A stretch of 41,650 nt of DNA from a virus. Taxonomy: Duplodnaviria > Heunggongvirae > Uroviricota > Caudoviricetes. Shown here piece after piece: positions 3,071 to 37,676 of the stretch; positions within the stretch are counted from its first letter, which is position 1; the number at the start of each line of letters is the position of its first letter. The notes under the pieces are model-generated. The model saw only the letters and a list, made by a program, of their open reading frames with translations, did not search any database and was not told the origin of the DNA. A program made the translations under genes and the position numbers. The stretch is from IMG/VR virus record IMGVR_UViG_2778261458_000005, positions 1 to 41,650 of that record, one strand, 5' to 3'.

Positions 3071-3624
3071 TGGATGACTCCTTTACGAAGCTGTTCAGCG
3101 ATATCTTCGAGAACGCCATCAGAGAATGAGCGGTCAAAATCTCCTTCCGGCGCATTAGCCATAAAATCAGTAGAGGTAAGAATCATCTGGGCAATATCCT
3201 CGGCGTTCTTCGCAGTATCATCAATAAAACCAACTTTCCAGGCAGCCAGCATTCTGTTCGCCACAAAGTAAGCGCCCTCCTTGCGTGCTTCAGTCTTCAC
3301 TTCAGCCAAGAAAGCGTCGGTGGCTGGGGTTTCAGTAACATCATCTTCCCATTCGCTAAACTCCTCACGACAAAGGTCATTAAATTCCTTCTCAGATTGC
3401 TTAAGCGAGGTATTTTCTGCAGCCATCTTCGCGCATTTAGCCTCAAGGTTATCAATCGTGATTCCAGCAGAACGACACTCCCGCAACGCCGTTTCTAGTT
3501 TTGATTCAAGTTCACCGAACTTACGCACCAGATATTCAGCGTTTGTTTCGTTAACCTTTAAATCTCGTGGGAAGCATTTACCTTTCAGAAAACCATCCAT
3601 CTCAATTAGTGACATTAGTTTCAT
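3067..3624 (-). CDS. Hypothetical early-left protein
   Basis: ORF-track start 3642 is GTG; preferred ATG at 3624 overlaps the stop of a small upstream ORF (ATGA). Confidence 0.5.
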
Positions 3625-29290: not shown

Positions 29291-30697
29291 ATGGCTACTT
29301 GGCAAGGAACAAACGGCGGATTGTTGGCTGGTATCGGCGGCGTCAACTCAAACGCTCCGAGCGTAAATGACATCGGCAATACGCTTCAGCTTATCAGGCA
29401 GAACAATGATATTGAGCGTTCAGGCGCTAACAATGTTGGGCTGACTGCTTTGCAAGGCCTTTCAGGTATTGCTGGGGTGTTTCAGCAGGAAAAGCAGGCT
29501 CAGCGGCAGAAAGAATTTCAGCAGGCATACGCTAATGCTTATGCGTCTGGTGATCGCGGTGCTTTGCGTCAGTTGGCTACTCAATATCCAGACCAGATTG
29601 AATCCGTTCGTAAAGGCATGGGATTCATTGATGAAGACCAGCGCAATTCTATCGGCACCTTAGCGGCTGGCGCTCGTCTTGCGGCATCGTCTCCAGAAGC
29701 AATGCAATCATGGCTGCAAAACAACGCCAAGGAACTGACTCGCGTCGGTGTTGACCCTAATAACGTTGCTCAGATGTATCAGCAGAACCCTTCAGGATTT
29801 GGTGAGTTTGTTGATCACCTTGGAATGGCTGCTCTTGGTCCGATTGATTACTTCAATGTTCAGGACAAGATGGCTGGTCGTGAAATTGACCGAGGCAGGC
29901 TGGCAGAGACAATCCGCAGCAATCAGGCTGGCGAGGCACTTCAGGCTAGAGGGCAAAACCTTTCCTATCAGTCAGCAATGACTGGGCACAATATCGCAGC
30001 ACAACGCTTGGCTCTGGATCAGCAAGAGTTCGGGTTTAAGATGCAGCAAGCGCAGGAAAAGGCTCAGCAGTTGATTAGCGAAGCACCTAAGCTGTCAGTA
30101 AACATGGAAAAAGGCATCGAGACGGCTGTAAACAATGCCACAGCATCATCAAACTCAGCCAATTCTATGAGTGCGCTTGCTCAACAGTTCAGAGCAGAAA
30201 AACCAACGACAGGTTTGTTCGGTAACGCACAGAACATGTTCGCAAAACTTACCGGAAGCGATACGACATTGCGTGATTTGCGCATCCGACAAAATGCCCT
30301 TGTTAACAGTCAGGTTCTGAAATTCCTACCTCCCGGCCCCGCAACGGATAAAGACGTTGAGATCGTTCGGCAGGGTGCGCCAACTGACATGGATAACCCT
30401 GAGACGGTCGCAAGATGGCTTGATGCGATGGCAAACCTTGAGCGACGAAACGCGCAGTTTAATGAGTTTAAAGCCGAGTGGATGAGCGCGAATGGCAACC
30501 CTGGACAATCGCGTAATGGCGGTCAGATATTGGGGTTGGATGTTAAAAAAGGTGAATCATTGGGGAGCGCCGTTAAGAGGTATATGTCAATGAATACTGA
30601 CGCAGCGCCAGCACAAGATTCGACTCCTTCAGGAGAATCACGGAATCAGGTTGGATCATATACCTCAAAATCAGGCATTCAATTTACGGTGGAATGA
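29291..30697 (+). CDS. Ejection protein (P22 gp20 type)
   Basis: ATG at 29291 with AGGGG RBS (ORF-track start 29285 is GTG); synteny. Confidence 0.75.
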
Positions 30698-32541
30698 TGA
30701 AAGTAACTGCAAACGGTAAGACATTTACCTTCCCTGATGGTACGAGCACGGAAGATATTGGCACCGCCATTGATGAGTATTTTGCTGGTCAGGCTGTTCA
30801 GCAACAAACAGTTAATCAGGTCAATAATGAACCAGCACGTGAAGAACCATCATTGATGCAACAAGCTGGCGATTGGCTCACAGGTGGTCAAAGTGCAGGG
30901 CAAATTGTAGAACAGGCTGGTCGTGGTCTGGTAAACATACCATTTGACGTATTGCAGGGTGGCGCAAGTCTGATTAATGCAATCAGCCAGGGGCTTGGTG
31001 GTCCAAAAGTATTGGATGATGTCTATCGTCCAGTCGATCGACCGACAGACCCTTATGCGCAAACTGGAGAAACAATTGGCGGGTATTTAGTTCCAGGAGT
31101 TGGAACGGCAGGAAGCATGGCTATTGGATCACTGGCAGAGGCCGCAAATCAGAAAGGCGATTTCGCACAAAATGCAGCAAAAAATGCCGGAGTTAACCTT
31201 GCCGCTCAGGGGGTTCTTTCCGCAGCAGCAAAGGGAATAGGGCGTGGAATAACGGCTATAAAAGGTGATATTGCGCCAGAAGTAGCGAAGAAAATTGCCA
31301 CATCAGAATCGATGGGCGTGACACCAATGACATCTGATGTTATCCCGCCGAAAAATGCTTTCACTCGCGGCCTTACTCAGGATGCCGAGGGGGCTTTGCT
31401 CGGGACAGGCTCAAAGCGAGCGGAGCAATATGCAACGCGTAGTAAGCTGGTAAGCAATTATTTTGACCGTTTTGGTGAGTACAACCCTGATGATGTGGTG
31501 AAATCTCTGACCACCACGTTAAGGGGGCGGAAGGATGCCGCTGGCGCTGTTATCAATGACGTCACCAATAAAATGGGTAATGCCGCAGTTGATACCACAA
31601 ATACCATGAATGCTCTGAATACAGCGATCGCAAGACAGGAACGGCTTGGGACGTCTGCCAATCAAAGCCTGCTTACATCCTTGCGTAACCTACGTGAAGA
31701 ATTAGCAAACCCTGCAACTGATTTGGATGTTACGTTTGATCTCTTGCGTCAGCACAGAACAGCATTTAGATCTAATGTTCAGGGAGATGCTATGGTCTTC
31801 CCCAACCAGGCAAAAGCAGCTACCAATATGGTAGAGAATGCAATGTCAAAAGACCTTCGTAACGCAGTTGCAAAAAACCTCGGTGCGTCAGACGCAGCAA
31901 AATACCTTAAAGCAAATTCCGATTATGCAAACGTTTATAATAAGGTGCTTAATAAAAACATTGCCAACAAGCTCAACAAGGCAAGCAGTGAAGCCAGTCC
32001 TGAACTTATAAATACCGTTGTATTAAGCAGAAAACCATCTGACGTGAAACGAATCTGGAGCGCACTGGATGATAAGGGGAAAGATGCTATGCGTGCAGCT
32101 TACGTCAGCAAAATAGCGGAAAAGGCCGGGGACTCTCCAGCCAAGTTCATCACTGAAGTTAATAAGCTGAAATCTCAGTCAGGCGGTGAAATTTACAACA
32201 CTATTTTTTCTGGAAAGCACATGAAAGAGCTTGATGCTCTTCATGAAGTTCTACAGCAAACAGCAAGGTCAGACACCGCAAATGTAGTAACTCAGACGGG
32301 GCAATCGCAAGCCAACAGGATAAGGACGATTGGCGCAACTGCGACCCTTGGCGTATCAATGGGGCTTGAGGCTGGTTTCGGTGCAATGATGCGCTTGTAT
32401 GAGTCAAAAGCAGCAAGGAATGCTCTCTTACGTTTGGCAAACACCAAAGCAGGAACACCAGCCTATGAAAGAGCGCTAAATAATGCTGCAAATGCGATAC
32501 GCCCTATACTTTCAAGCCAAATTACAGCAGAACAGCAATAA
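30694..32541 (+). CDS. Ejection protein (P22 gp16 type)
   Basis: 615 aa versus 609 for P22 gp16; ATGA overlap with the upstream gene. Confidence 0.8.
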
Positions 32542-32554
32542 AAAAAAGATATAA

Positions 32555-33040
32555 CTATCTGATATTACTGCTACTGTTGCATGTTACCGTGTTTCCAAAT
32601 CCTGAATTGCAGTTTGTATATGTGTCAACGCGTGTTGGGTAAGGTTGAGTTATAACAGGCTGGCGCGCTTTTTGCTCGATCGCTTGCATTGTGTTTACAG
32701 CCTGATAATTCAATAAAGCCTGCTGGAATGCTTGGCTTTGTGCTATTTGTTGTGCTTGTTCTTGGCTTTGTAATTGAACATAAAGATTCTGAAGTTCAAG
32801 TCTTGCCTGTGTGTCACTTATCTTGCCTTCATCGACACCTTGCCCGAGCATCTTCGCAGCAAGGACATACAGCTTAGGTGTTGGTGCTGATGCCATGCGA
32901 GAGTCGTTCTTCAAGCTGGCATCAAGGCAATTAGCCATATCGCTAAGCTTTGGATAGCGTTGTTCGCAACTTGCCTGATAGTCGCTTACTTTTGCGCACC
33001 CAGCCAGCAGAAGCGGGATAATTAACAGTGATTTTTTCAT
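32555..33040 (-). CDS. Lipoprotein, Gln-rich (candidate superinfection-exclusion factor; inference)
   Basis: Start at internal ATG 33040 with AAGGAG RBS; signal peptide MKKSLLIIPLLLAGC with lipobox LAGC; occupies the P22 sieA position. Confidence 0.65.
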   Translation of the reverse strand: MKKSLLIIPLLLAGCAKVSDYQASCEQRYPKLSDMANCLDASLKNDSRMASAPTPKLYVLAAKMLGQGVDEGKISDTQARLELQNLYVQLQSQEQAQQIAQSQAFQQALLNYQAVNTMQAIEQKARQPVITQPYPTRVDTYTNCNSGFGNTVTCNSSSNIR

Positions 33041-33074
33041 ATAATTAACTCTCCTTAGTTTTGCGCAGGATACC

Positions 33075-33440
33075 ATGAAAAAAGTTAACATTGGAAACGT
33101 ACCAAAGATGCTCGTTCCGCTCTTTGAGAGCGGTACAATTGTGTTTTGTAGAGACTTTCCAGAATGGCAACGCCTGCATCAAAAACTTGGCGTTGACGTG
33201 CATGACTCGGACGCCAACGGAGCGTCTCATACAATGAGTAGCGAGAATGGTGTTTTGCATGTGATAGGCGTGTTCAATGGCAAACTATCTACTATTGCCC
33301 ATGAGTGCGCTCACATGGCATTCGATATCTGCTCAAGGGTAGGTGTTGATGTTGAACCAGGAAGAGCCAACGAGACTTACTGCTACTTAATGAGCAGGCT
33401 TGTTGAGTTCTGCGAGCGACATATCAAAAAGCCGGAGTGA
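33075..33440 (+). CDS. Hypothetical protein with HExxH motif (putative zinc-metallopeptidase-like)
   Basis: 121 aa; AHECAHMAF contains HExxH; ATG with AGGA RBS; no close family recognised. Confidence 0.5.
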   Translation: MKKVNIGNVPKMLVPLFESGTIVFCRDFPEWQRLHQKLGVDVHDSDANGASHTMSSENGVLHVIGVFNGKLSTIAHECAHMAFDICSRVGVDVEPGRANETYCYLMSRLVEFCERHIKKPE

Positions 33441-33453
33441 CCCGGCTTGATTA

Positions 33454-33633
33454 TTACTTTTTGCTGTCTGGAGTTCGCTTATCCAATACCCAGCCATGAC
33501 CTGGCTTTGTTGTTGGTGGAAGCCTTTCGTTGTCCTTGACGGTGGCAAAATTGTCTTTCTTACCGCCGCGTGGGCCAACTTCTTGGTATATTCCGCCGTT
33601 TTTTCCTGTGTTTTCACCTGGTTTTTTCGCCAT
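33454..33633 (-). CDS. Small Gly/Lys-rich protein (YjzC-like, tentative)
   Basis: 59 aa from ATG 33633 with GAGG RBS; pattern NGGIYQEVGPRGG...LPPTTKPGHGW. Confidence 0.45.
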   Translation of the reverse strand: MAKKPGENTGKNGGIYQEVGPRGGKKDNFATVKDNERLPPTTKPGHGWVLDKRTPDSKK

Positions 33634-33732
33634 GATATACCTCAACATACACCCATTATTGGGCGATTAAATATTGATCTCATTTTATAAGTAGTCAATA
33701 TGGCCCAGGTAAATGCAAAAATTAACTCACCG

Positions 33733-33984
33733 TCAGGTGGTTTTTTTGTACAAATCCTTCAGCGTATCAAACACCATCTTCTTAACAAGATCTGACTGCT
33801 CATCAGCGAGTCGTTCTGCATCGTCACGATATCCAGTCACAGGCGATGGTTTTGATAGAGCATCTTGGACGATCTGTAACAACTCGGAGTTCATTGATCT
33901 CCCATTCGCCTCCGCCCTGAATTTTAATTTCTCCCTTACTTCCATAGGCATACGGAAGTTAAAGTGCGGATCATCTCTAGCCAT
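33733..33984 (-). CDS. mnt: Mnt repressor (immI)
   Basis: 83 aa, essentially identical to P22 Mnt as I recall it (MARDDPHFNFRMPMEVREKLKFRAEANGRSMNSELLQIV...). Confidence 0.9.
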   Translation of the reverse strand: MARDDPHFNFRMPMEVREKLKFRAEANGRSMNSELLQIVQDALSKPSPVTGYRDDAERLADEQSDLVKKMVFDTLKDLYKKTT

Positions 33985-34074: not shown

Positions 34075-34236
34075 ATGAAAGGAATGAGCAAAATGCCGCA
34101 GTTCAATTTGCGGTGGCCTAAAGAAGTATTGGATTTGGTACGCAAGGTGGCGGAAGAGAATGGTCGGTCTGTTAACTCTGAGATTTATCAGAGAGTAATG
34201 GACAGCTTTAAGAAGGAAGGGCGCATTGGCGCGTAA
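34075..34236 (+). CDS. arc: Arc repressor (immI)
   Basis: 53 aa from internal ATG; [53 protein letters not shown] matches P22 Arc. Confidence 0.9.
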
Positions 34237-34304
34237 AGTTGAAGCCCCAGCTGCGGGAACAGTCAGGGCTTCTGTTGTCAGTAAATTCGTGGAGAAAAAC
34301 CAAC

Positions 34305-35207
34305 ATGAATAGTATAGCAATTTTAGAAGCAGTGAACACCTCTTACGTACCTTTCAATGGTCAGAAGATTATCACCGCCATGGCTGCCGGAGTTGCATAT
34401 GTTGCGATGAAGCCAATCGTTGAAAACCTTGGAATGAGCTGGTCAACGCAGCAAACAAAACTCATGAAGCAGATTAGCAAATTCAACTGTGTTCATATGA
34501 ACATGGTTGCCGCTGATGGTAAGCTTCGTAAGCTACTCTGCCTTCCTTTGAAGAAGTTAAATGGATGGCTGTTCAGCATCAACCCTGAGAAAGTTCGTGC
34601 TGACATCCGCGATAAACTGATTCAGTACCAGGAAGAATGCTTTACTGTGCTGCATGACTACTGGGCGAAGGGAAAGGCAGAAAATGCACGTAAGAAAACA
34701 TCTGTTGATGACAGGACTCCGCTTCGTGATGCTGTAAATATGCTAGTCAGCAAAAAGCATCTAATGTACCCAGAAGCTTATGCAATGATTCATCAGCGTT
34801 TCAACGTGGAAAGTATTGAAGAGCTTGATTCATCTCAGATACCGCAAGCAGTAGAGTACATCCACAGGGTGGTGCTTGAAGGCGAGTTCATCGGCAAACA
34901 AGAGAAGAAAACCAACGAGCTTTCTGCAAAAGAAGCAAACAGCCTTGTATGGCTATGGGATTATGCCAATCGCTCACAGGCATTATTCCGCGAACTGTAT
35001 CCGGCATTAAAACAAATTCAATCTAACTATTCCGGAAGATGCTACGACTACGGTCATGAGTTCTCGTATATTATCGGAATGGCGAGAGATGTTTTAATCA
35101 ATCACACACGAGATGTTGATATTAATGAGCCAGACGGACCAACGAATCTTTCCGCATGGATGAGACTTAAGAATAAAGAATTACCTCCTTCAGTACATAA
35201 CTACTGA
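34305..35207 (+). CDS. ant: Antirepressor Ant
   Basis: 300 aa from internal ATG 34305, the P22 Ant length; N-terminus [25 protein letters not shown]. Confidence 0.9.
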
Positions 35208-35306: not shown

Positions 35307-37676
35307 ATGACAGACATTACAGCCAATTTTGTAGTGAGTATGCCATCGCAACTCTTCACTATGGCGCGTTCTTTTAAAGCTGTAGCTAATGGCAAAATTT
35401 ATATCGGAAAGATTGATACTGATCCGGTAAATTCAGAAAACCAGATTCCGGTTTATGTAAGGAGCGAAGACGGTTCTCATATTGCCGTCTCACAGCCAAT
35501 AGTTATCAATGCGGCTGGATACCCGGTATATAACGGACAGATTGCCAAGTTCGTAACTGTGCAAGGCCATTCTATGGCTGTTTATGATGCATATGGTGCA
35601 CAGCAGTTCTATTTCCCGAATATACTGAAGTATGACCCGGATCAACTACTTGCTGAATTGTCAGGTCCATGTGGATCTGAAATGATTGGACGACCGGGTG
35701 GTGGAACTGTAGCAGATGTGATGCCATTAAAGGTCGATTTAAACATTCATGTACCATCAGATTATTCTTCACTGTCCGAAGCTCTGTTAAGTCTACATGA
35801 CAAACGATTTCCTGATACGAAAGTTAACATCACCGTCGCTCCCGGACTGTACACTGAATCAGCTACGTTACCTTCGTCGCACATTGATGGTGAAAACATC
35901 AATATTACAGGTAACACACAGGTATTCACCGCATCCAGAGTAAATTCTGTGGTTGCAGGAACATTCTCAGTTAAACATTGGGATGGTGTAGTAAAAAATC
36001 TAAACTACCACATAGTTACAGCCACCGTAACAGGAGCTATTCCTCAAGTTGGGGAATACGTTCTCGTGCGTGGAGCGTCTGGTGCAGATACAGCAGAATA
36101 TCATCTTGGTGTATGGGAGGTTACTTCTGTTACAGGTAACCAAGTAACTTGGCTCACATCTCTTAATTCAGCGCCTCCTGTTGGTGACATTTCCCTGACT
36201 GGTTCAATACTGAAGACAGTAATTCATTTTCTTGACTCAGCGAAGGGACCAACTGCAGTTATGGTGGAGAATTCATTATCACTTGGAATGATTAACGGTA
36301 TTGCGTTTGTTGGTGCAGCGCGTCCGTTAGCATCAGGAAGTCGTGGACCTGATAAATATGACGTTTTTGGTGGGTATGGCGGCAATACTGGTATTGTGGC
36401 TAGAGATGGCGGTGTTCTCAACTTGGGATCAGATATAGGCGTTAGCGGGTTTTCCGGATCTAACGTTTATGCGAATCGCAGCGGGACCATTGTTGTCGGG
36501 ATTGGTGCTGCTTCCAGTAATTCAGCACGCAACGGTTGGGGATCCGCTTCTGCAGTTACCCAGTGCCAAGGGGTAATTTCCTCAGGTAACCTCATTGATG
36601 GTGTTATTGCTCAGGATACGGGATTTACTTTCGCCCCTAAATCTCGCTCATACGGGAACCACCGTCATGCATATGTAGCGTCAGGTGGCGCATCATTAAA
36701 CATGGCTAATTCTGTTGGGCGTGGAAATATAGGAAATGGCATTGATAATATTAACTCTACAGTGCTTGCAAATGGATGCGTAATAAGAGGCAACGTCGGC
36801 ATGGCAATAAATAATGCTGCCGGTCAGACACGTATGCCTAACAGTGATTTACGCAATAATTCCGGAGTTGTATGCTCCCTGCATGGTTCTCTAAATATTA
36901 CCAGCTCAAACTTAGATGGAGTTTCAGTTAGAGCAGTTTCTGGAGGTTTCATTGACGTTACTGGGGCAACTGGAGTTGCTACTTATACTCCCGTGCGTAA
37001 TCACTATTCTGTTTTTGGCGGTTTTATTTCAAGCGGCACTGCTCAGGATTTCATTGGGTTTAGTTCTACAGGAAGTAATTCAGTTATGCGCCTTTCAGGA
37101 GATAACCACGTTTTGATAGGAACAGCCGCAGATCTTGCTGGACTTCATGGCGCTCGCCTTCACTGTAATGGTCCAGCAGTATTTGCCGGTGATATTTATC
37201 CTTCGACAGATGCGACCAATAATATTGGATCAGCTTCATTGCGAATGAACATTGGATTTTTCGCGGGAGGAACGCAATCTAGTTCAGATGGCAGGCTTAA
37301 GGACCCAACAAGACCATTCAATCAGGCGGAAATGAATGCAGCAAAGCGACTAGCTGAAAAAATTGGATTCTGGACATGGATTGATGATGAAGAAAAACGG
37401 CTACATGCAGGCATGACTGTCCAGACTGTTCTGGAAATCCTTAACGACGAAGGACTTGACTGGAGGAGATATGGGTTCATAGGTTACGACAAATGGGATG
37501 ATGTTTTTGAGCCGGTGATTCGCGAGTTACCTGACGGTTCTAAGGAGGATTCTGGAGAAATTAAGATTGTTAGGGAAGCTGGCGATCTTTGGCAATTCCG
37601 CGATCAAGAACTGGACAGGTTTATTATGAGGGGGCTTTCTCAGAGACTAAGTGAGTTAGAGTCAAAACTTTCGTAA
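35307..37676 (+). CDS. Tailspike: P22 gp9-type head-binding N-domain, divergent beta-helix receptor domain, C-terminal chaperone-like domain
   Basis: N-terminal ~110 aa match the P22 tailspike head-binding domain; middle is Gly/Asn/Ser-rich with repetitive beta-helix character; last ~130 aa resemble the self-cleaving chaperone domain of endosialidase/T5 fibres (SSDGRLKD). Confidence 0.85.

What the first reader, a model, noticed from the sequence alone, without database searches (positions are those of the whole stretch)
32555..33650. Three oppositely oriented small genes at the sieA position: Gln-rich lipoprotein, HExxH protein, YjzC-like small protein
Between the last ejection-protein gene and mnt, where P22 carries sieA, this prophage has three genes each with its own RBS and alternating orientation: a lipoprotein with a clear signal peptide and lipobox (LAGC) and a Gln-rich C-terminal half, a 121-aa protein with an HExxH motif (HECAHM), and a 59-aa Gly/Lys-rich protein. 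Prophage lipoproteins at this position are known in other phages to block incoming phage DNA or mask receptors, so this is a candidate superinfection-exclusion or defence module of novel composition. The HExxH protein has no adjacent XRE-type partner but lies next to the Mnt/Arc/Ant immunity switch.
Basis: partly seen in the sequence, partly recalled or inferred. Interest (0 to 1): 0.65.

Follow-up and report, generated by a model that had tools for sequence, protein, structure and literature searches.

The report
Lipoprotein cassette in P22 sieA slot
The three small genes are real, but two of them are ordinary, long-known P22/HK620 genes of unknown function; only the lipoprotein gene replaces the phage-exclusion gene sieA, as one of at least 13 interchangeable, mostly envelope-targeted cassettes, which makes it an untested candidate for a new exclusion protein.

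Summary
The window is a P22-like E. coli prophage and the region is the left part of the known "ant moron" between gene 16 and the tailspike gene. All three ORFs are real: lipoprotein 32555-33040(-), HExxH protein 33075-33440(+), 59-aa protein 33454-33633(-). They are not a novel three-gene module. The HExxH gene (hkcC) and the 59-aa gene (orf59a) are 98% identical in DNA to P22 itself and are also in HK620. Only the lipoprotein gene replaces sieA. The exchange point lies directly after a shared Shine-Dalgarno sequence and downstream of the putative P22 sieA promoter. Among 88 loci with near-identical hkcC, this slot holds 13 unrelated cassettes, 12 of them with an N-terminal hydrophobic segment. 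The lipoprotein sits next to gene 16 in 80 of 80 viral contigs, usually without hkcC or orf59a. It has a canonical lipobox, no Asp at +2 and no known homologue or fold. It is therefore a plausible but unproven envelope-located exclusion protein. HkcC has an invariant HExxH...E metal-site motif, a confident model with no PDB neighbour, and late-operon orientation. orf59a is a divergent YjzC-like protein. Interest is moderate.

The parts
30694..32541 (+). Gene 16 homologue (last ejection-protein gene); context and left border of the variable slot
   Evidence: 74% aa identity to P22 gp16 by tblastn. RefSeq neighbours are named 'DNA transfer protein / P22-gp16 family'. PF26808 is recorded on identical-context loci.
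32555..33040 (-). 161-aa lipoprotein precursor, the cassette that replaces sieA. Signal peptide 1-14, lipobox LAGC 12-15, conserved helical N-domain about 16-75 with Cys25/Cys38, Gln-rich long helix 76-125, and a C-terminal Cys144/Cys154 hairpin.
   Evidence: phrog_6067, unknown function. No Pfam, NCBIfam or PADLOC hit. No PDB sequence or fold match. Always convergent with gene 16.
33041..33074 (.). Conserved 34-nt linker between the divergent starts. It carries the SD (AAGGAG, - strand) used by the slot gene and the SD of hkcC (+ strand), and it is the recombination boundary of the cassettes.
   Evidence: Identical CTCCTTAGTTTTG[C/T]GCAGGATACCATG in all slot variants. The break in homology to P22 lies directly after the SD. 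The linker is kept even where hkcC is absent.
33075..33105 (-). Sequence equivalent to the putative P22 sieA promoter (BK000583 13861-13891), inside the first 31 nt of hkcC
   Evidence: Annotated in the P22 record. The window sequence is identical over this stretch. 85 bp upstream of sieA sufficed for exclusion in Leavitt et al. 2024 (PMC10883804). Not detected by the simple consensus scan, so it remains putative.
33075..33440 (+). hkcC: 121-aa cytoplasmic protein with an invariant HExxH (76-80) plus Glu100 motif; phrog_1365
   Evidence: 99.2% aa identity to the HK620 hkcC product and to the intact P22 ORF. Invariant H76/E77/H80/E100 in 118 sequences. AF2 pLDDT 93.4. No TM segment.
33429..33448 (.). 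Bidirectional terminator hairpin shared by the convergent hkcC and orf59a genes
   Evidence: Terminator-like on both strands. Annotated as the mnt terminator in P22 and as the bidirectional tORF59A in HK620.
33454..33633 (-). orf59a homologue: 59-aa basic Gly/Lys/Pro-rich protein, a divergent YjzC-like protein
   Evidence: 98% aa identity to P22 orf59a. phrog_3202. Pfam YjzC 19.4 bits against a threshold of 25. Homologues P0349 and P0365 pass the threshold.
33670..33698 (-). Promoter-like site (TTGACT-17-AATATT) upstream of orf59a
   Evidence: Consensus scan, 9 of 12 matches. The region is retained in HK620 although mnt is deleted there. Function not shown.
33733..33984 (-). mnt repressor gene (context)
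   Evidence: Pfam Arc plus Repressor_Mnt. 98% nt identity to P22 mnt.
34075..34236 (+). arc repressor gene (context)
   Evidence: Pfam Arc, 106.5 bits; ORF.
34237..34304 (-). sar antisense RNA (context)
   Evidence: Rfam RF00262, 84.8 bits, E 1.2e-17.
34305..35207 (+). ant antirepressor gene (context)
   Evidence: Pfam P22_AR_N and P22_AR_C.
35307..37676 (+). Tailspike gene (right border of the ant moron)
   Evidence: Pfam Head_binding, 208 bits, plus a Peptidase_S74 chaperone domain.

Best explanation
The region is the left part of the P22-type 'ant moron'. It contains three independent genes, not one module. (1) The 161-aa protein is an exported lipoprotein with no Lol-avoidance residue, so it is predicted to be anchored in the outer membrane facing the periplasm. 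Its gene sits in an exchangeable expression socket directly downstream of gene 16, the socket that holds sieA in P22. In this window it inherits the upstream region of P22 sieA (putative PsieA, 5'UTR and SD), so it is expected to be made by the prophage. The most likely role is an envelope-located block to infection by incoming phages (superinfection exclusion). It would act at the outer membrane or periplasm, not at the inner membrane where SieA acts. This function is inferred from position and localisation only. (2) hkcC encodes a small cytoplasmic protein with a gluzincin-like HExxH-x19-E metal site. It points the same way as the late operon, has no conserved promoter of its own, and is probably transcribed by late read-through during lytic growth. 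A zinc-dependent hydrolase acting on an unknown host or phage target is the best guess. (3) orf59a encodes a tiny basic YjzC-like protein on the prophage-expressed strand, reached from Pmnt and probably from its own promoter; its function is unknown. The alternating orientation reflects interleaved prophage-expressed (- strand) and lytic (+ strand) transcription units, not a three-part machine. Sub-confidences: independent-cassette architecture 0.9; lipoprotein exported and lipidated 0.85; lipoprotein acts in phage exclusion 0.4; HkcC is a metal-dependent hydrolase 0.55.
For: Identity to P22: window 33047-33800 is 97.9% identical to P22, and homology breaks exactly after the SD. P22 and HK620 carry intact hkcC and orf59a, and the literature lists them as P22 genes of unknown function in the ant moron (PMC2629481). 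Slot census: 13 unrelated cassettes sit next to near-identical hkcC. They include SieA (14 loci) and the lipoprotein (20 loci), and 12 of 13 have an N-terminal hydrophobic segment. The same gp16 type pairs with 5 slot classes, and the lipoprotein pairs with gp16 proteins of 98% and 32% identity. The lipoprotein is convergent with gene 16 in 80 of 80 IMG/VR loci, and also in Proteus, Salmonella, Providencia, Tatumella and MAG contexts. It lies directly downstream of mnt on the same strand in at least 58 of 80 loci. Lipobox rule met in 30 of 30 homologues, with +2 = Ala or Val. Two conserved Cys pairs fit an oxidising compartment. For HkcC: invariant H76/E77/H80/E100, secondary-structure order beta-beta-alpha-beta-beta-alpha(HExxH)-alpha(E) at pLDDT 93, and weak links to zincins. 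Paralogues lie in late operons of phage L and the mEp phages. Plate-initiated polymerase reads through the moron into gene 9 (PMC2629481). No + strand promoter-like site was found upstream of hkcC.
Confidence: 0.55

Rival explanations
1. One reading: the three genes form one superinfection-exclusion or defence module that works together.
For: They are adjacent and compact, and they lie in a region that carries sieA in P22.
Against: hkcC and orf59a are present in P22 and HK620 beside other slot genes. 13 different slot genes pair with identical hkcC. The lipoprotein lacks both partners in 63 of 80 viral contigs and in Proteus, Providencia and Tatumella loci. The trio is contiguous in only about 18 E. 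coli genomes, out of 186 with the lipoprotein gene and 452 with the hkcC-orf59a region. There are three separate transcription directions with a terminator between two of them. No PADLOC hit.
Confidence: 0.04
2. The lipoprotein is a lysogenic-conversion factor unrelated to phage entry, for example serum resistance as for the lambda Bor lipoprotein, envelope stabilisation, or adhesion. It occupies a slot that simply tolerates any prophage-expressed envelope gene.
For: The predicted outer-membrane lipoprotein lies on the prophage-expressed strand. It has no homology to any exclusion protein. It is widespread in clinical E. coli and other Enterobacterales. Slot contents are heterogeneous.
Against: The only characterised occupant of the slot is an exclusion protein that targets the products of the adjacent genes 16 and 20 (PMC10883804). 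The family is confined to P22-like prophages at this one position in every context examined.
Confidence: 0.3
3. HkcC is an ImmA/IrrE-type anti-repressor protease that acts on Mnt, Arc or C2 as part of the immunity I switch.
For: It has an HExxH motif and lies beside mnt/arc/ant in this window.
Against: There is no hit to Peptidase_M78 or any Pfam family. HK620 keeps an intact hkcC (99% aa) although mnt, arc and ant are reduced to remnants. Paralogues lie between lysis and head genes in phage L and the mEp phages, far from any repressor. It is oriented with the late operon, not with the regulatory genes.
Confidence: 0.05
4. HkcC is not an enzyme: the HExxH...E residues hold a structural metal or an interaction surface in a small adaptor or inhibitor protein with a new fold.
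Against: The catalytic Glu of HExxH is invariant together with both His and a Glu 20 residues downstream, the spacing seen in thermolysin-type gluzincins (own knowledge). There are weak profile links to SprT-like, myroilysin/astacin and a 'peptidase' PHROG.
Confidence: 0.25

Closest known systems
P22 SieA (Pfam PF26849), inner-membrane superinfection-exclusion protein
   Same: Same genomic slot directly downstream of and convergent with gene 16. Same upstream region and SD in this window. On the prophage-expressed strand. Envelope-located product (PMC10883804).
   Different: No sequence similarity (the slot aligns at 49% nt identity, meaning unrelated; no tblastn hit). SieA is a multi-pass inner-membrane protein with about 4 hydrophobic segments, whereas the lipoprotein has only a cleavable signal peptide and is predicted to be outer-membrane anchored. 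Exclusion is shown for SieA and is untested for the lipoprotein.
Prophage outer-membrane exclusion lipoproteins Cor (phi80/N15/HK022) and Llp (T5)
   Same: Small phage-encoded lipoproteins made to protect the cell against incoming phage (established knowledge). The window protein is also a small predicted outer-membrane lipoprotein in a prophage accessory slot.
   Different: No homology. The only Cor hit (phrog_1119, E 0.092) covers just the signal peptide, residues 1-29. Cor and Llp belong to FhuA-dependent siphoviruses, whereas this gene is confined to P22-like podovirus prophages. The target is unknown.
The P22-like 'ant moron' as described for P22, HK620 and epsilon34 (hkcB / hkcC / orf59a-hkcD layout)
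   Same: Identical architecture: gene 16, then a slot gene (-), hkcC (+), a bidirectional terminator, orf59a (-), mnt/arc/sar/ant, then gene 9 (PMC2629481).
   Different: The slot gene here is the lipoprotein, not sieA (P22) or hkcB (HK620). No paper found in the searches describes this lipoprotein cassette.
Gluzincin / minimal zincin metallopeptidases (thermolysin-type HExxH plus Glu; SprT-like PF10263)
   Same: Invariant HExxH with a Glu 20 residues after the second His, within a conserved 'NE' dipeptide. Secondary-structure order of sheet, backing helix, active-site helix, Glu helix. 3 of 118 family members weakly hit SprT-like.
   Different: No Pfam family at threshold, and no structural neighbour among zincins in the PDB. 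Only 121 aa, stand-alone and restricted to phages (phrog_1365).
YjzC family (Pfam PF14168)
   Same: Same length and Gly/Lys-rich pattern. Direct phmmer hits to PF14168 members (E 1e-6 to 5e-4), and a 68%-identical homologue passes the Pfam threshold.
   Different: The window protein itself scores 19.4 bits, below the threshold of 25. The family has no known function, so membership explains nothing mechanistically.

Membership tests
Bacterial lipoprotein (signal peptidase II substrate; PROSITE PS51257-type rule) | Basic n-region, uncharged hydrophobic h-region, and lipobox [LVI][ASTVI][GAS]C with the Cys between positions 15 and 35 | tested here: met
   MKK / SLLIIPLLL / LAGC, with Cys15. The rule is matched in 30 of 30 homologues and Cys15 is invariant.
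Bacterial lipoprotein (signal peptidase II substrate; PROSITE PS51257-type rule) | Outer-membrane sorting: no Asp at position +2 (E. coli Lol rule, established knowledge) | tested here: met
   +2 is Ala in 28 homologues and Val in 2 of 30, never Asp. This is a prediction from sequence only.
Bacterial lipoprotein (signal peptidase II substrate; PROSITE PS51257-type rule) | Actual lipidation and globomycin-sensitive processing | not testable with these tools
   Needs an experiment.
SieA superinfection-exclusion proteins (PF26849; types A-C) | Sequence homology, including the FxRYPxEAxxFNK motif (PMC10883804) | tested here: not met
   No tblastn similarity between SieA and the lipoprotein locus. 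The slot aligns at 49% nt identity. The motif is absent from the sequence.
SieA superinfection-exclusion proteins (PF26849; types A-C) | Multi-pass inner-membrane topology | tested here: not met
   No 19-residue hydrophobic window in the lipoprotein, against 4 in SieA.
SieA superinfection-exclusion proteins (PF26849; types A-C) | Position between genes 16 and 9 of a P22-like prophage, opposite strand to gene 16 | tested here: met
   Window; 80 of 80 IMG/VR loci and 6 other genera or phages.
SieA superinfection-exclusion proteins (PF26849; types A-C) | Blocks DNA injection of P22-like phages | not testable with these tools
   Needs plating and K+ efflux assays.
Cor / Llp type exclusion lipoproteins | Sequence homology to Cor (phrog_1119) or Llp | tested here: not met
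   Only a signal-peptide-level match, E 0.092, residues 1-29. No PDB fold hit.
Known anti-phage defence systems (PADLOC-DB 2.0) | Match of any of the three proteins to a defence-system model | tested here: not met
   0 families for all three at E<=1.
Zincin / gluzincin metallopeptidases | HExxH motif conserved across the family | tested here: met
   H76, E77 and H80 are invariant in 118 sequences of 23-78% identity.
Zincin / gluzincin metallopeptidases | Third metal ligand Glu on a following helix | tested here: met
   E100 is invariant, lies 20 residues after H80, and starts helix 100-115. Its role as a ligand is inferred, because no coordinates were available.
Zincin / gluzincin metallopeptidases | Zincin fold recognisable by structure comparison | tested here: not met
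Zincin / gluzincin metallopeptidases | Membership of a curated peptidase family | tested here: not met
   No Pfam or NCBIfam hit for the window protein. 3 of 118 relatives hit SprT-like weakly. The PDB profile search gave only myroilysin at E 0.015.
ImmA/IrrE (Peptidase_M78) anti-repressor proteases | Pfam PF06114 match and an adjacent Xre-type repressor | tested here: not met
   No hit. The neighbours are orf59a and the slot gene. hkcC persists in HK620 without immunity I.
YjzC family (PF14168) | Score at or above the Pfam gathering threshold (25 bits) | tested here: inconclusive
   The window protein scores 19.4 bits. The 68%-identical P0349 scores 25.9 and P0365 scores 29.2. There are direct phmmer hits to PF14168 members. 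It is best called a divergent relative.
P22 immunity I / 'ant moron' | mnt, arc, sar RNA and ant between genes 16 and 9 | tested here: met
   Pfam Arc plus Repressor_Mnt, Arc, and P22_AR_N/C. Rfam sar at 84.8 bits. Head_binding tailspike.

The most novel reading that the evidence does not exclude
The position directly downstream of gene 16 may be a fixed 'expression socket': a shared promoter region, 5'UTR and SD and, for 12 of 13 classes, even a shared GTG start. P22-like prophages would swap at least 13 unrelated, envelope-targeted entry blockers into it. On this reading the 161-aa lipoprotein is the first outer-membrane or periplasmic blocker of the podovirus ejection-protein conduit, mechanistically distinct from inner-membrane SieA. 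Separately, HkcC would be a minimal metallohydrolase with a fold not yet represented in the PDB.
Probability: 0.25. Interest if true: 0.6.

Novelty: new member of a known kind. Interest (0 to 1): 0.35.

Why it matters
SieA is the only studied system that blocks DNA injection by short-tailed phages, and only about a third of sequenced P22-like phages carry it (PMC10883804). This analysis shows that the same socket holds many other envelope proteins. The lipoprotein is among the commonest of them: 186 of 5426 complete E. coli genomes, and many Enterobacterales genera. That gives a concrete, cheap set of candidates for testing how the trans-envelope ejection conduit can be blocked at different layers of the envelope. 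It also points to hkcC. This gene is missing from the P22 reference annotation, yet its exact protein is listed in more than 10,000 blocks of the public assembly collection, it has a clear metal-site signature, and its function has been unknown since 2001. [quoted passage not shown]

Tried and rejected
- pid hypothesis: I suspected the HExxH ORF might be the P22 ORFan pid. It is not; pid lies between orf25 and orf80.
- Curated families: Pfam, NCBIfam and PADLOC gave nothing meaningful for the lipoprotein or HkcC. The lantibiotic hits at E 0.03-0.14 are noise around 'HEC'.
- PDB sequence and profile searches: only marginal hits.
- The search for related loci with the deep HkcC alignment failed because no stretch was conserved enough. 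The shallower alignment returned only near-identical copies, so it could not reveal conserved partners of distant family members.
- The genome-contig scan for the lipoprotein found only 4 loci.
- Literature: searches for 'hkcC' alone and for 'orf59a' were mostly off target and gave no functional data.
- Error to note: my 'arc' query in python searches was translated one base out of frame. The arc labels in those tables mark DNA similarity only and are not used as evidence; arc is supported by Pfam.
- Cor and Rz-spanin PHROG hits for the lipoprotein were rejected as signal-peptide matches.
Full report
**1. What is in the sequence**

The window is a complete P22-like prophage of E. coli type. 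Window 32400-33800, which contains the finding, is 99.0-99.5% identical to about ten E. coli chromosomes. Its gene order is:
- genes 20 and 16;
- the three small ORFs of the finding;
- mnt, arc, the sar antisense RNA and ant;
- the tailspike gene.

- A 161-aa lipoprotein precursor lies at 32555-33040 on the minus strand.
- A 121-aa protein containing HECAH lies at 33075-33440 on the plus strand.
- A 59-aa Lys/Gly-rich protein lies at 33454-33633 on the minus strand.

Each has a readable Shine-Dalgarno sequence. Each is a real gene.
- The lipoprotein has 90 homologues across Enterobacterales with invariant Cys15, Cys25 and Cys38.
- The HExxH protein belongs to a family with 514 representatives at 50% clustering.
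- The small protein has 108 homologues.

**2.

The three genes do not jointly replace sieA. Window 33047-33800 is 97.9% identical to phage P22 itself. P22 carries the intact HExxH ORF between sieA and orf59a. The reference records (BK000583/NC_002371) leave that ORF unannotated and show only a 'sieA promoter' and an 'mnt terminator' there.

Segment identities between the window and P22 are as follows:

| Segment | Nucleotide identity to P22 |
|---|---|
| gene 16 | 69% |
| slot gene | 49% (unrelated) |
| HExxH gene | 98.4% |
| orf59a | 97.8% |
| mnt | 98.0% |

The HExxH gene is hkcC of coliphage HK620 (99.2% aa identity, annotated 'unknown'). HK620 shows the same layout:
- gene 16;
- hkcB on the minus strand;
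- hkcC on the plus strand;
- a bidirectional terminator;
- the orf59a homologue on the minus strand.

Villafane et al. (PMC2629481) call the whole interval between genes 16 and 9 the 'ant moron'. [quoted passage not shown] The alternating three-gene layout is therefore published architecture. Only the occupant of the first position is different here.

**3. The slot**

The exact HkcC protein is listed in 10,459 blocks of the public assembly collection.

I extracted the minus-strand ORF that starts next to hkcC in 88 loci with near-identical hkcC, and clustered the products. There are 13 unrelated classes:

| Slot class | Loci |
|---|---|
| 161-aa lipoprotein (window included) | 20 |
| SieA | 14 |
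| 129-aa protein with an N-terminal hydrophobic segment (probably secreted) | 11 |
| hkcB-like | 10 |
| 75-aa membrane protein | 8 |
| 62-aa membrane protein | 7 |
| second 109-aa protein with an N-terminal hydrophobic segment | 6 |
| six rarer classes | 1-3 each |

Twelve of the 13 classes have an N-terminal hydrophobic segment; only one class looks soluble.

All classes abut the same linker, CTCCTTAGTTTTG[C/T]GCAGGATACC-ATG(hkcC). This linker carries the AAGGAG Shine-Dalgarno sequence for the slot gene on the minus strand. The twelve non-lipoprotein classes even share the GTG start six bases after it. The lipoprotein cassette brings its own AGTTAATTAT-ATG.

The slot gene is shuffled independently of gene 16.
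- The gp16 type of this window (at least 90% identity) is found with five different slot classes.
- The lipoprotein is found with gp16 proteins of 98% and of 32% identity.

The sample is biased towards E. coli and Salmonella prophages and may contain redundant contigs, so the counts are illustrative only.

**4. The lipoprotein travels alone**

In 80 of 80 IMG/VR contigs it is convergent with gene 16, with mnt, hkcC, ant or the tailspike gene on its other side. The same holds in Proteus phage Brookers, Salmonella phage VSe13, Providencia, Tatumella and a metagenome-assembled genome.

hkcC and orf59a are present in only 17 of those 80 contigs. In at least 58 the lipoprotein gene lies directly downstream of an mnt-like gene on the same strand. 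This is also the arrangement in the two hkcC-less E. coli loci that I inspected.

Among 5426 complete E. coli genomes:
- the lipoprotein gene occurs in 186;
- the hkcC-orf59a region occurs in 452;
- the contiguous trio occurs in about 18.

Even without hkcC, a remnant of the linker up to the hkcC start codon precedes the lipoprotein gene. The linker therefore behaves as a recombination boundary.

**5. What the lipoprotein probably is**

- *Export and sorting.* The N-terminus meets the lipoprotein rule in 30 of 30 homologues. Position +2 is Ala or Val and never Asp, which by the E. coli Lol rule (established knowledge) predicts outer-membrane anchoring facing the periplasm.
- *Domains.* The mature protein has three parts:
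  - a well-conserved helical domain with an invariant Cys pair;
  - a 50-residue helix that is 29% Gln;
  - a short C-terminal hairpin with a second Cys pair, which exists in two sequence variants.
- *Similarity.* Pfam, NCBIfam and PADLOC give nothing, and its PHROG (6067) has unknown function. The weak Cor and spanin hits cover only the signal peptide. There is no relative in the PDB by sequence or fold.
- *Expression.* In this window the 85 bp upstream of its start are those of P22 sieA, except for the last few bases. That stretch plus sieA sufficed for exclusion in Leavitt et al. (PMC10883804). Expression from the prophage is therefore likely but not shown, and the promoter is only 'putative'.
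- *Function.* Three contextual facts bear on function:
  - the only characterised occupant of the socket blocks DNA injection by acting on the products of the adjacent genes 16 and 20;
  - nearly all occupants are envelope proteins;
  - this family is restricted to this position.

  From these I judge a periplasm- or outer-membrane-level block to incoming phage the most likely function (about 0.4). A conversion function unrelated to phage is the main rival (about 0.3).

**6. HkcC**

- *Metal-site motif.* An alignment of 118 family members (23-78% identity to the window protein) leaves exactly four invariant residues: H76, E77, H80 and E100. This is HExxH with a Glu 20 residues after the second His, inside a conserved 'NE', the spacing seen in thermolysin-type gluzincins (own knowledge).
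- *Model.* The AlphaFold model is confident (pLDDT 93.4). Its element order is two strands, a helix, a beta hairpin, the HExxH helix, then a helix that starts at E100. This order is compatible with a minimal zincin.
- *Curated families.* Support is weak: 3 of 118 members hit SprT-like, there is one 'peptidase' PHROG hit, and myroilysin scores E 0.015.
- *Working description.* I therefore describe it as a protein with a gluzincin-like metal site, not as a member of a peptidase family.
- *Location and expression.* It has no signal peptide or membrane segment. It points the same way as the late operon. The 34-nt linker and the variable slot gene upstream leave no room for a conserved promoter, and no plus-strand promoter-like site was found. 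Plate-initiated polymerase is reported to read through the moron into gene 9. Paralogues of about 38% identity sit inside late operons between lysis and head genes in phage L, ST64T and epsilon34, and relatives of about 36% identity occupy the same kind of position in the mEp lambdoid phages. Late lytic expression is thus the best inference.
- *No link to immunity I.* HK620 keeps hkcC intact although mnt, arc and ant are reduced to remnants.

**7. orf59a**

It is 98% identical to P22 orf59a. It lies downstream of mnt on the prophage-expressed strand and ends at the shared terminator hairpin at 33429-33448.

A promoter-like site lies upstream of it (33698-33670, minus strand). HK620 retains that 100-nt region despite the mnt deletion, which suggests that orf59a also has its own promoter.

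The protein scores below the Pfam YjzC threshold (19.4 against 25 bits). It nevertheless hits PF14168 members directly, and a 68%-identical homologue passes the threshold. 'YjzC-like' is a fair label, but it carries no functional information. The gene is missing in L020 and truncated in L018, both with intact hkcC, and the census finds it in only 2 of 7, 1 of 3, 0 of 2 and 1 of 2 loci of four slot classes. It is therefore not obligatorily linked to hkcC.

**8. Verdict**

The alternating orientation is best read as interleaved transcription programmes. The minus-strand genes (slot gene, orf59a, mnt) belong to the prophage. The plus-strand genes (hkcC, arc, ant, gene 9) belong to lytic growth.

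The finding is partly right: it picks out a real, uncharacterised lipoprotein in the sieA socket that is a testable exclusion candidate. It overstates novelty, because two of the three genes are standard P22 and HK620 genes and the region's variability is published.

- Novelty: a new, uncharacterised member of a known kind (prophage moron cassettes at the sieA position).
- Interest: 0.35.
- Most novel reading still open: the socket is a general exchange site for entry blockers, with the lipoprotein acting at the outer membrane or periplasm, and HkcC represents a fold absent from the PDB. I give this about 0.25 probability.

Noticed in passing
window 33041-33074; L011-L020 at about 3467-3500; L023/L125 upstream of the lipoprotein start: A roughly 30-nt linker (CTCCTTAGTTTTGCGCAGGATACCATG) is kept at every cassette junction. 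This holds even in prophages that lack hkcC, where only the linker up to the hkcC ATG survives. It behaves like a module boundary sequence that guides recombination.
   Followed up: partly
L011 4470-5006 and L015 4198-4734 (E. coli prophages related to the window): In some relatives a 178-aa ClpP-family protease gene (PF00574) lies directly downstream of the mnt-like Arc-family gene, between orf59a and arc/ant. This is a further unexplained cargo gene of the ant moron.
   Followed up: no
P22 reference records BK000583 / NC_002371, 13861-14226 (L001 2528-2893): The intact 121-aa hkcC ORF is not annotated as a CDS in the P22 reference genome. Only a promoter and a terminator are listed there, although HK620, UAB_Phi20 and many RefSeq prophages annotate it.
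   Followed up: yes
phage L MW013502 39867-40256 (L009 2501-2890); also ST64T, ST104, epsilon34; two copies in SE1, ST160, UAB_Phi20, Phi75: A paralogue of HkcC with 38% identity (orf129) lies in the late operon between Rz/Rz1 and dec. Several P22-like phages carry both copies.
   Followed up: partly
window 33670-33698 (- strand) and 33727-33740 (+ strand): There is a promoter-like site upstream of orf59a and a plus-strand terminator-like hairpin at the 3' end of mnt (HK620 'tMNT'). Both are conserved in HK620 although mnt is deleted there.
   Followed up: partly
lipoprotein residues 131-161 (window 32558-32650): The C-terminal tail of the lipoprotein family exists in two discrete variants (…TNCNSGFGNTVTCNSSSNIR versus …TTNCTTYGNQTRCQSY). 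Both have two Cys residues and follow a highly conserved N-domain, so the tail may determine specificity.
   Followed up: no
window 35307-37676: The tailspike has the P22 head-binding domain plus a C-terminal Peptidase_S74 intramolecular-chaperone domain, unlike the P22 endorhamnosidase tailspike.
   Followed up: no
protein P0023 (Cronobacter dublinensis): One homologue of the lipoprotein is named 'general secretion pathway protein GspK' in NCBI. It is full-length and 73% identical to the window lipoprotein, so this is almost certainly a misannotation.
   Followed up: no
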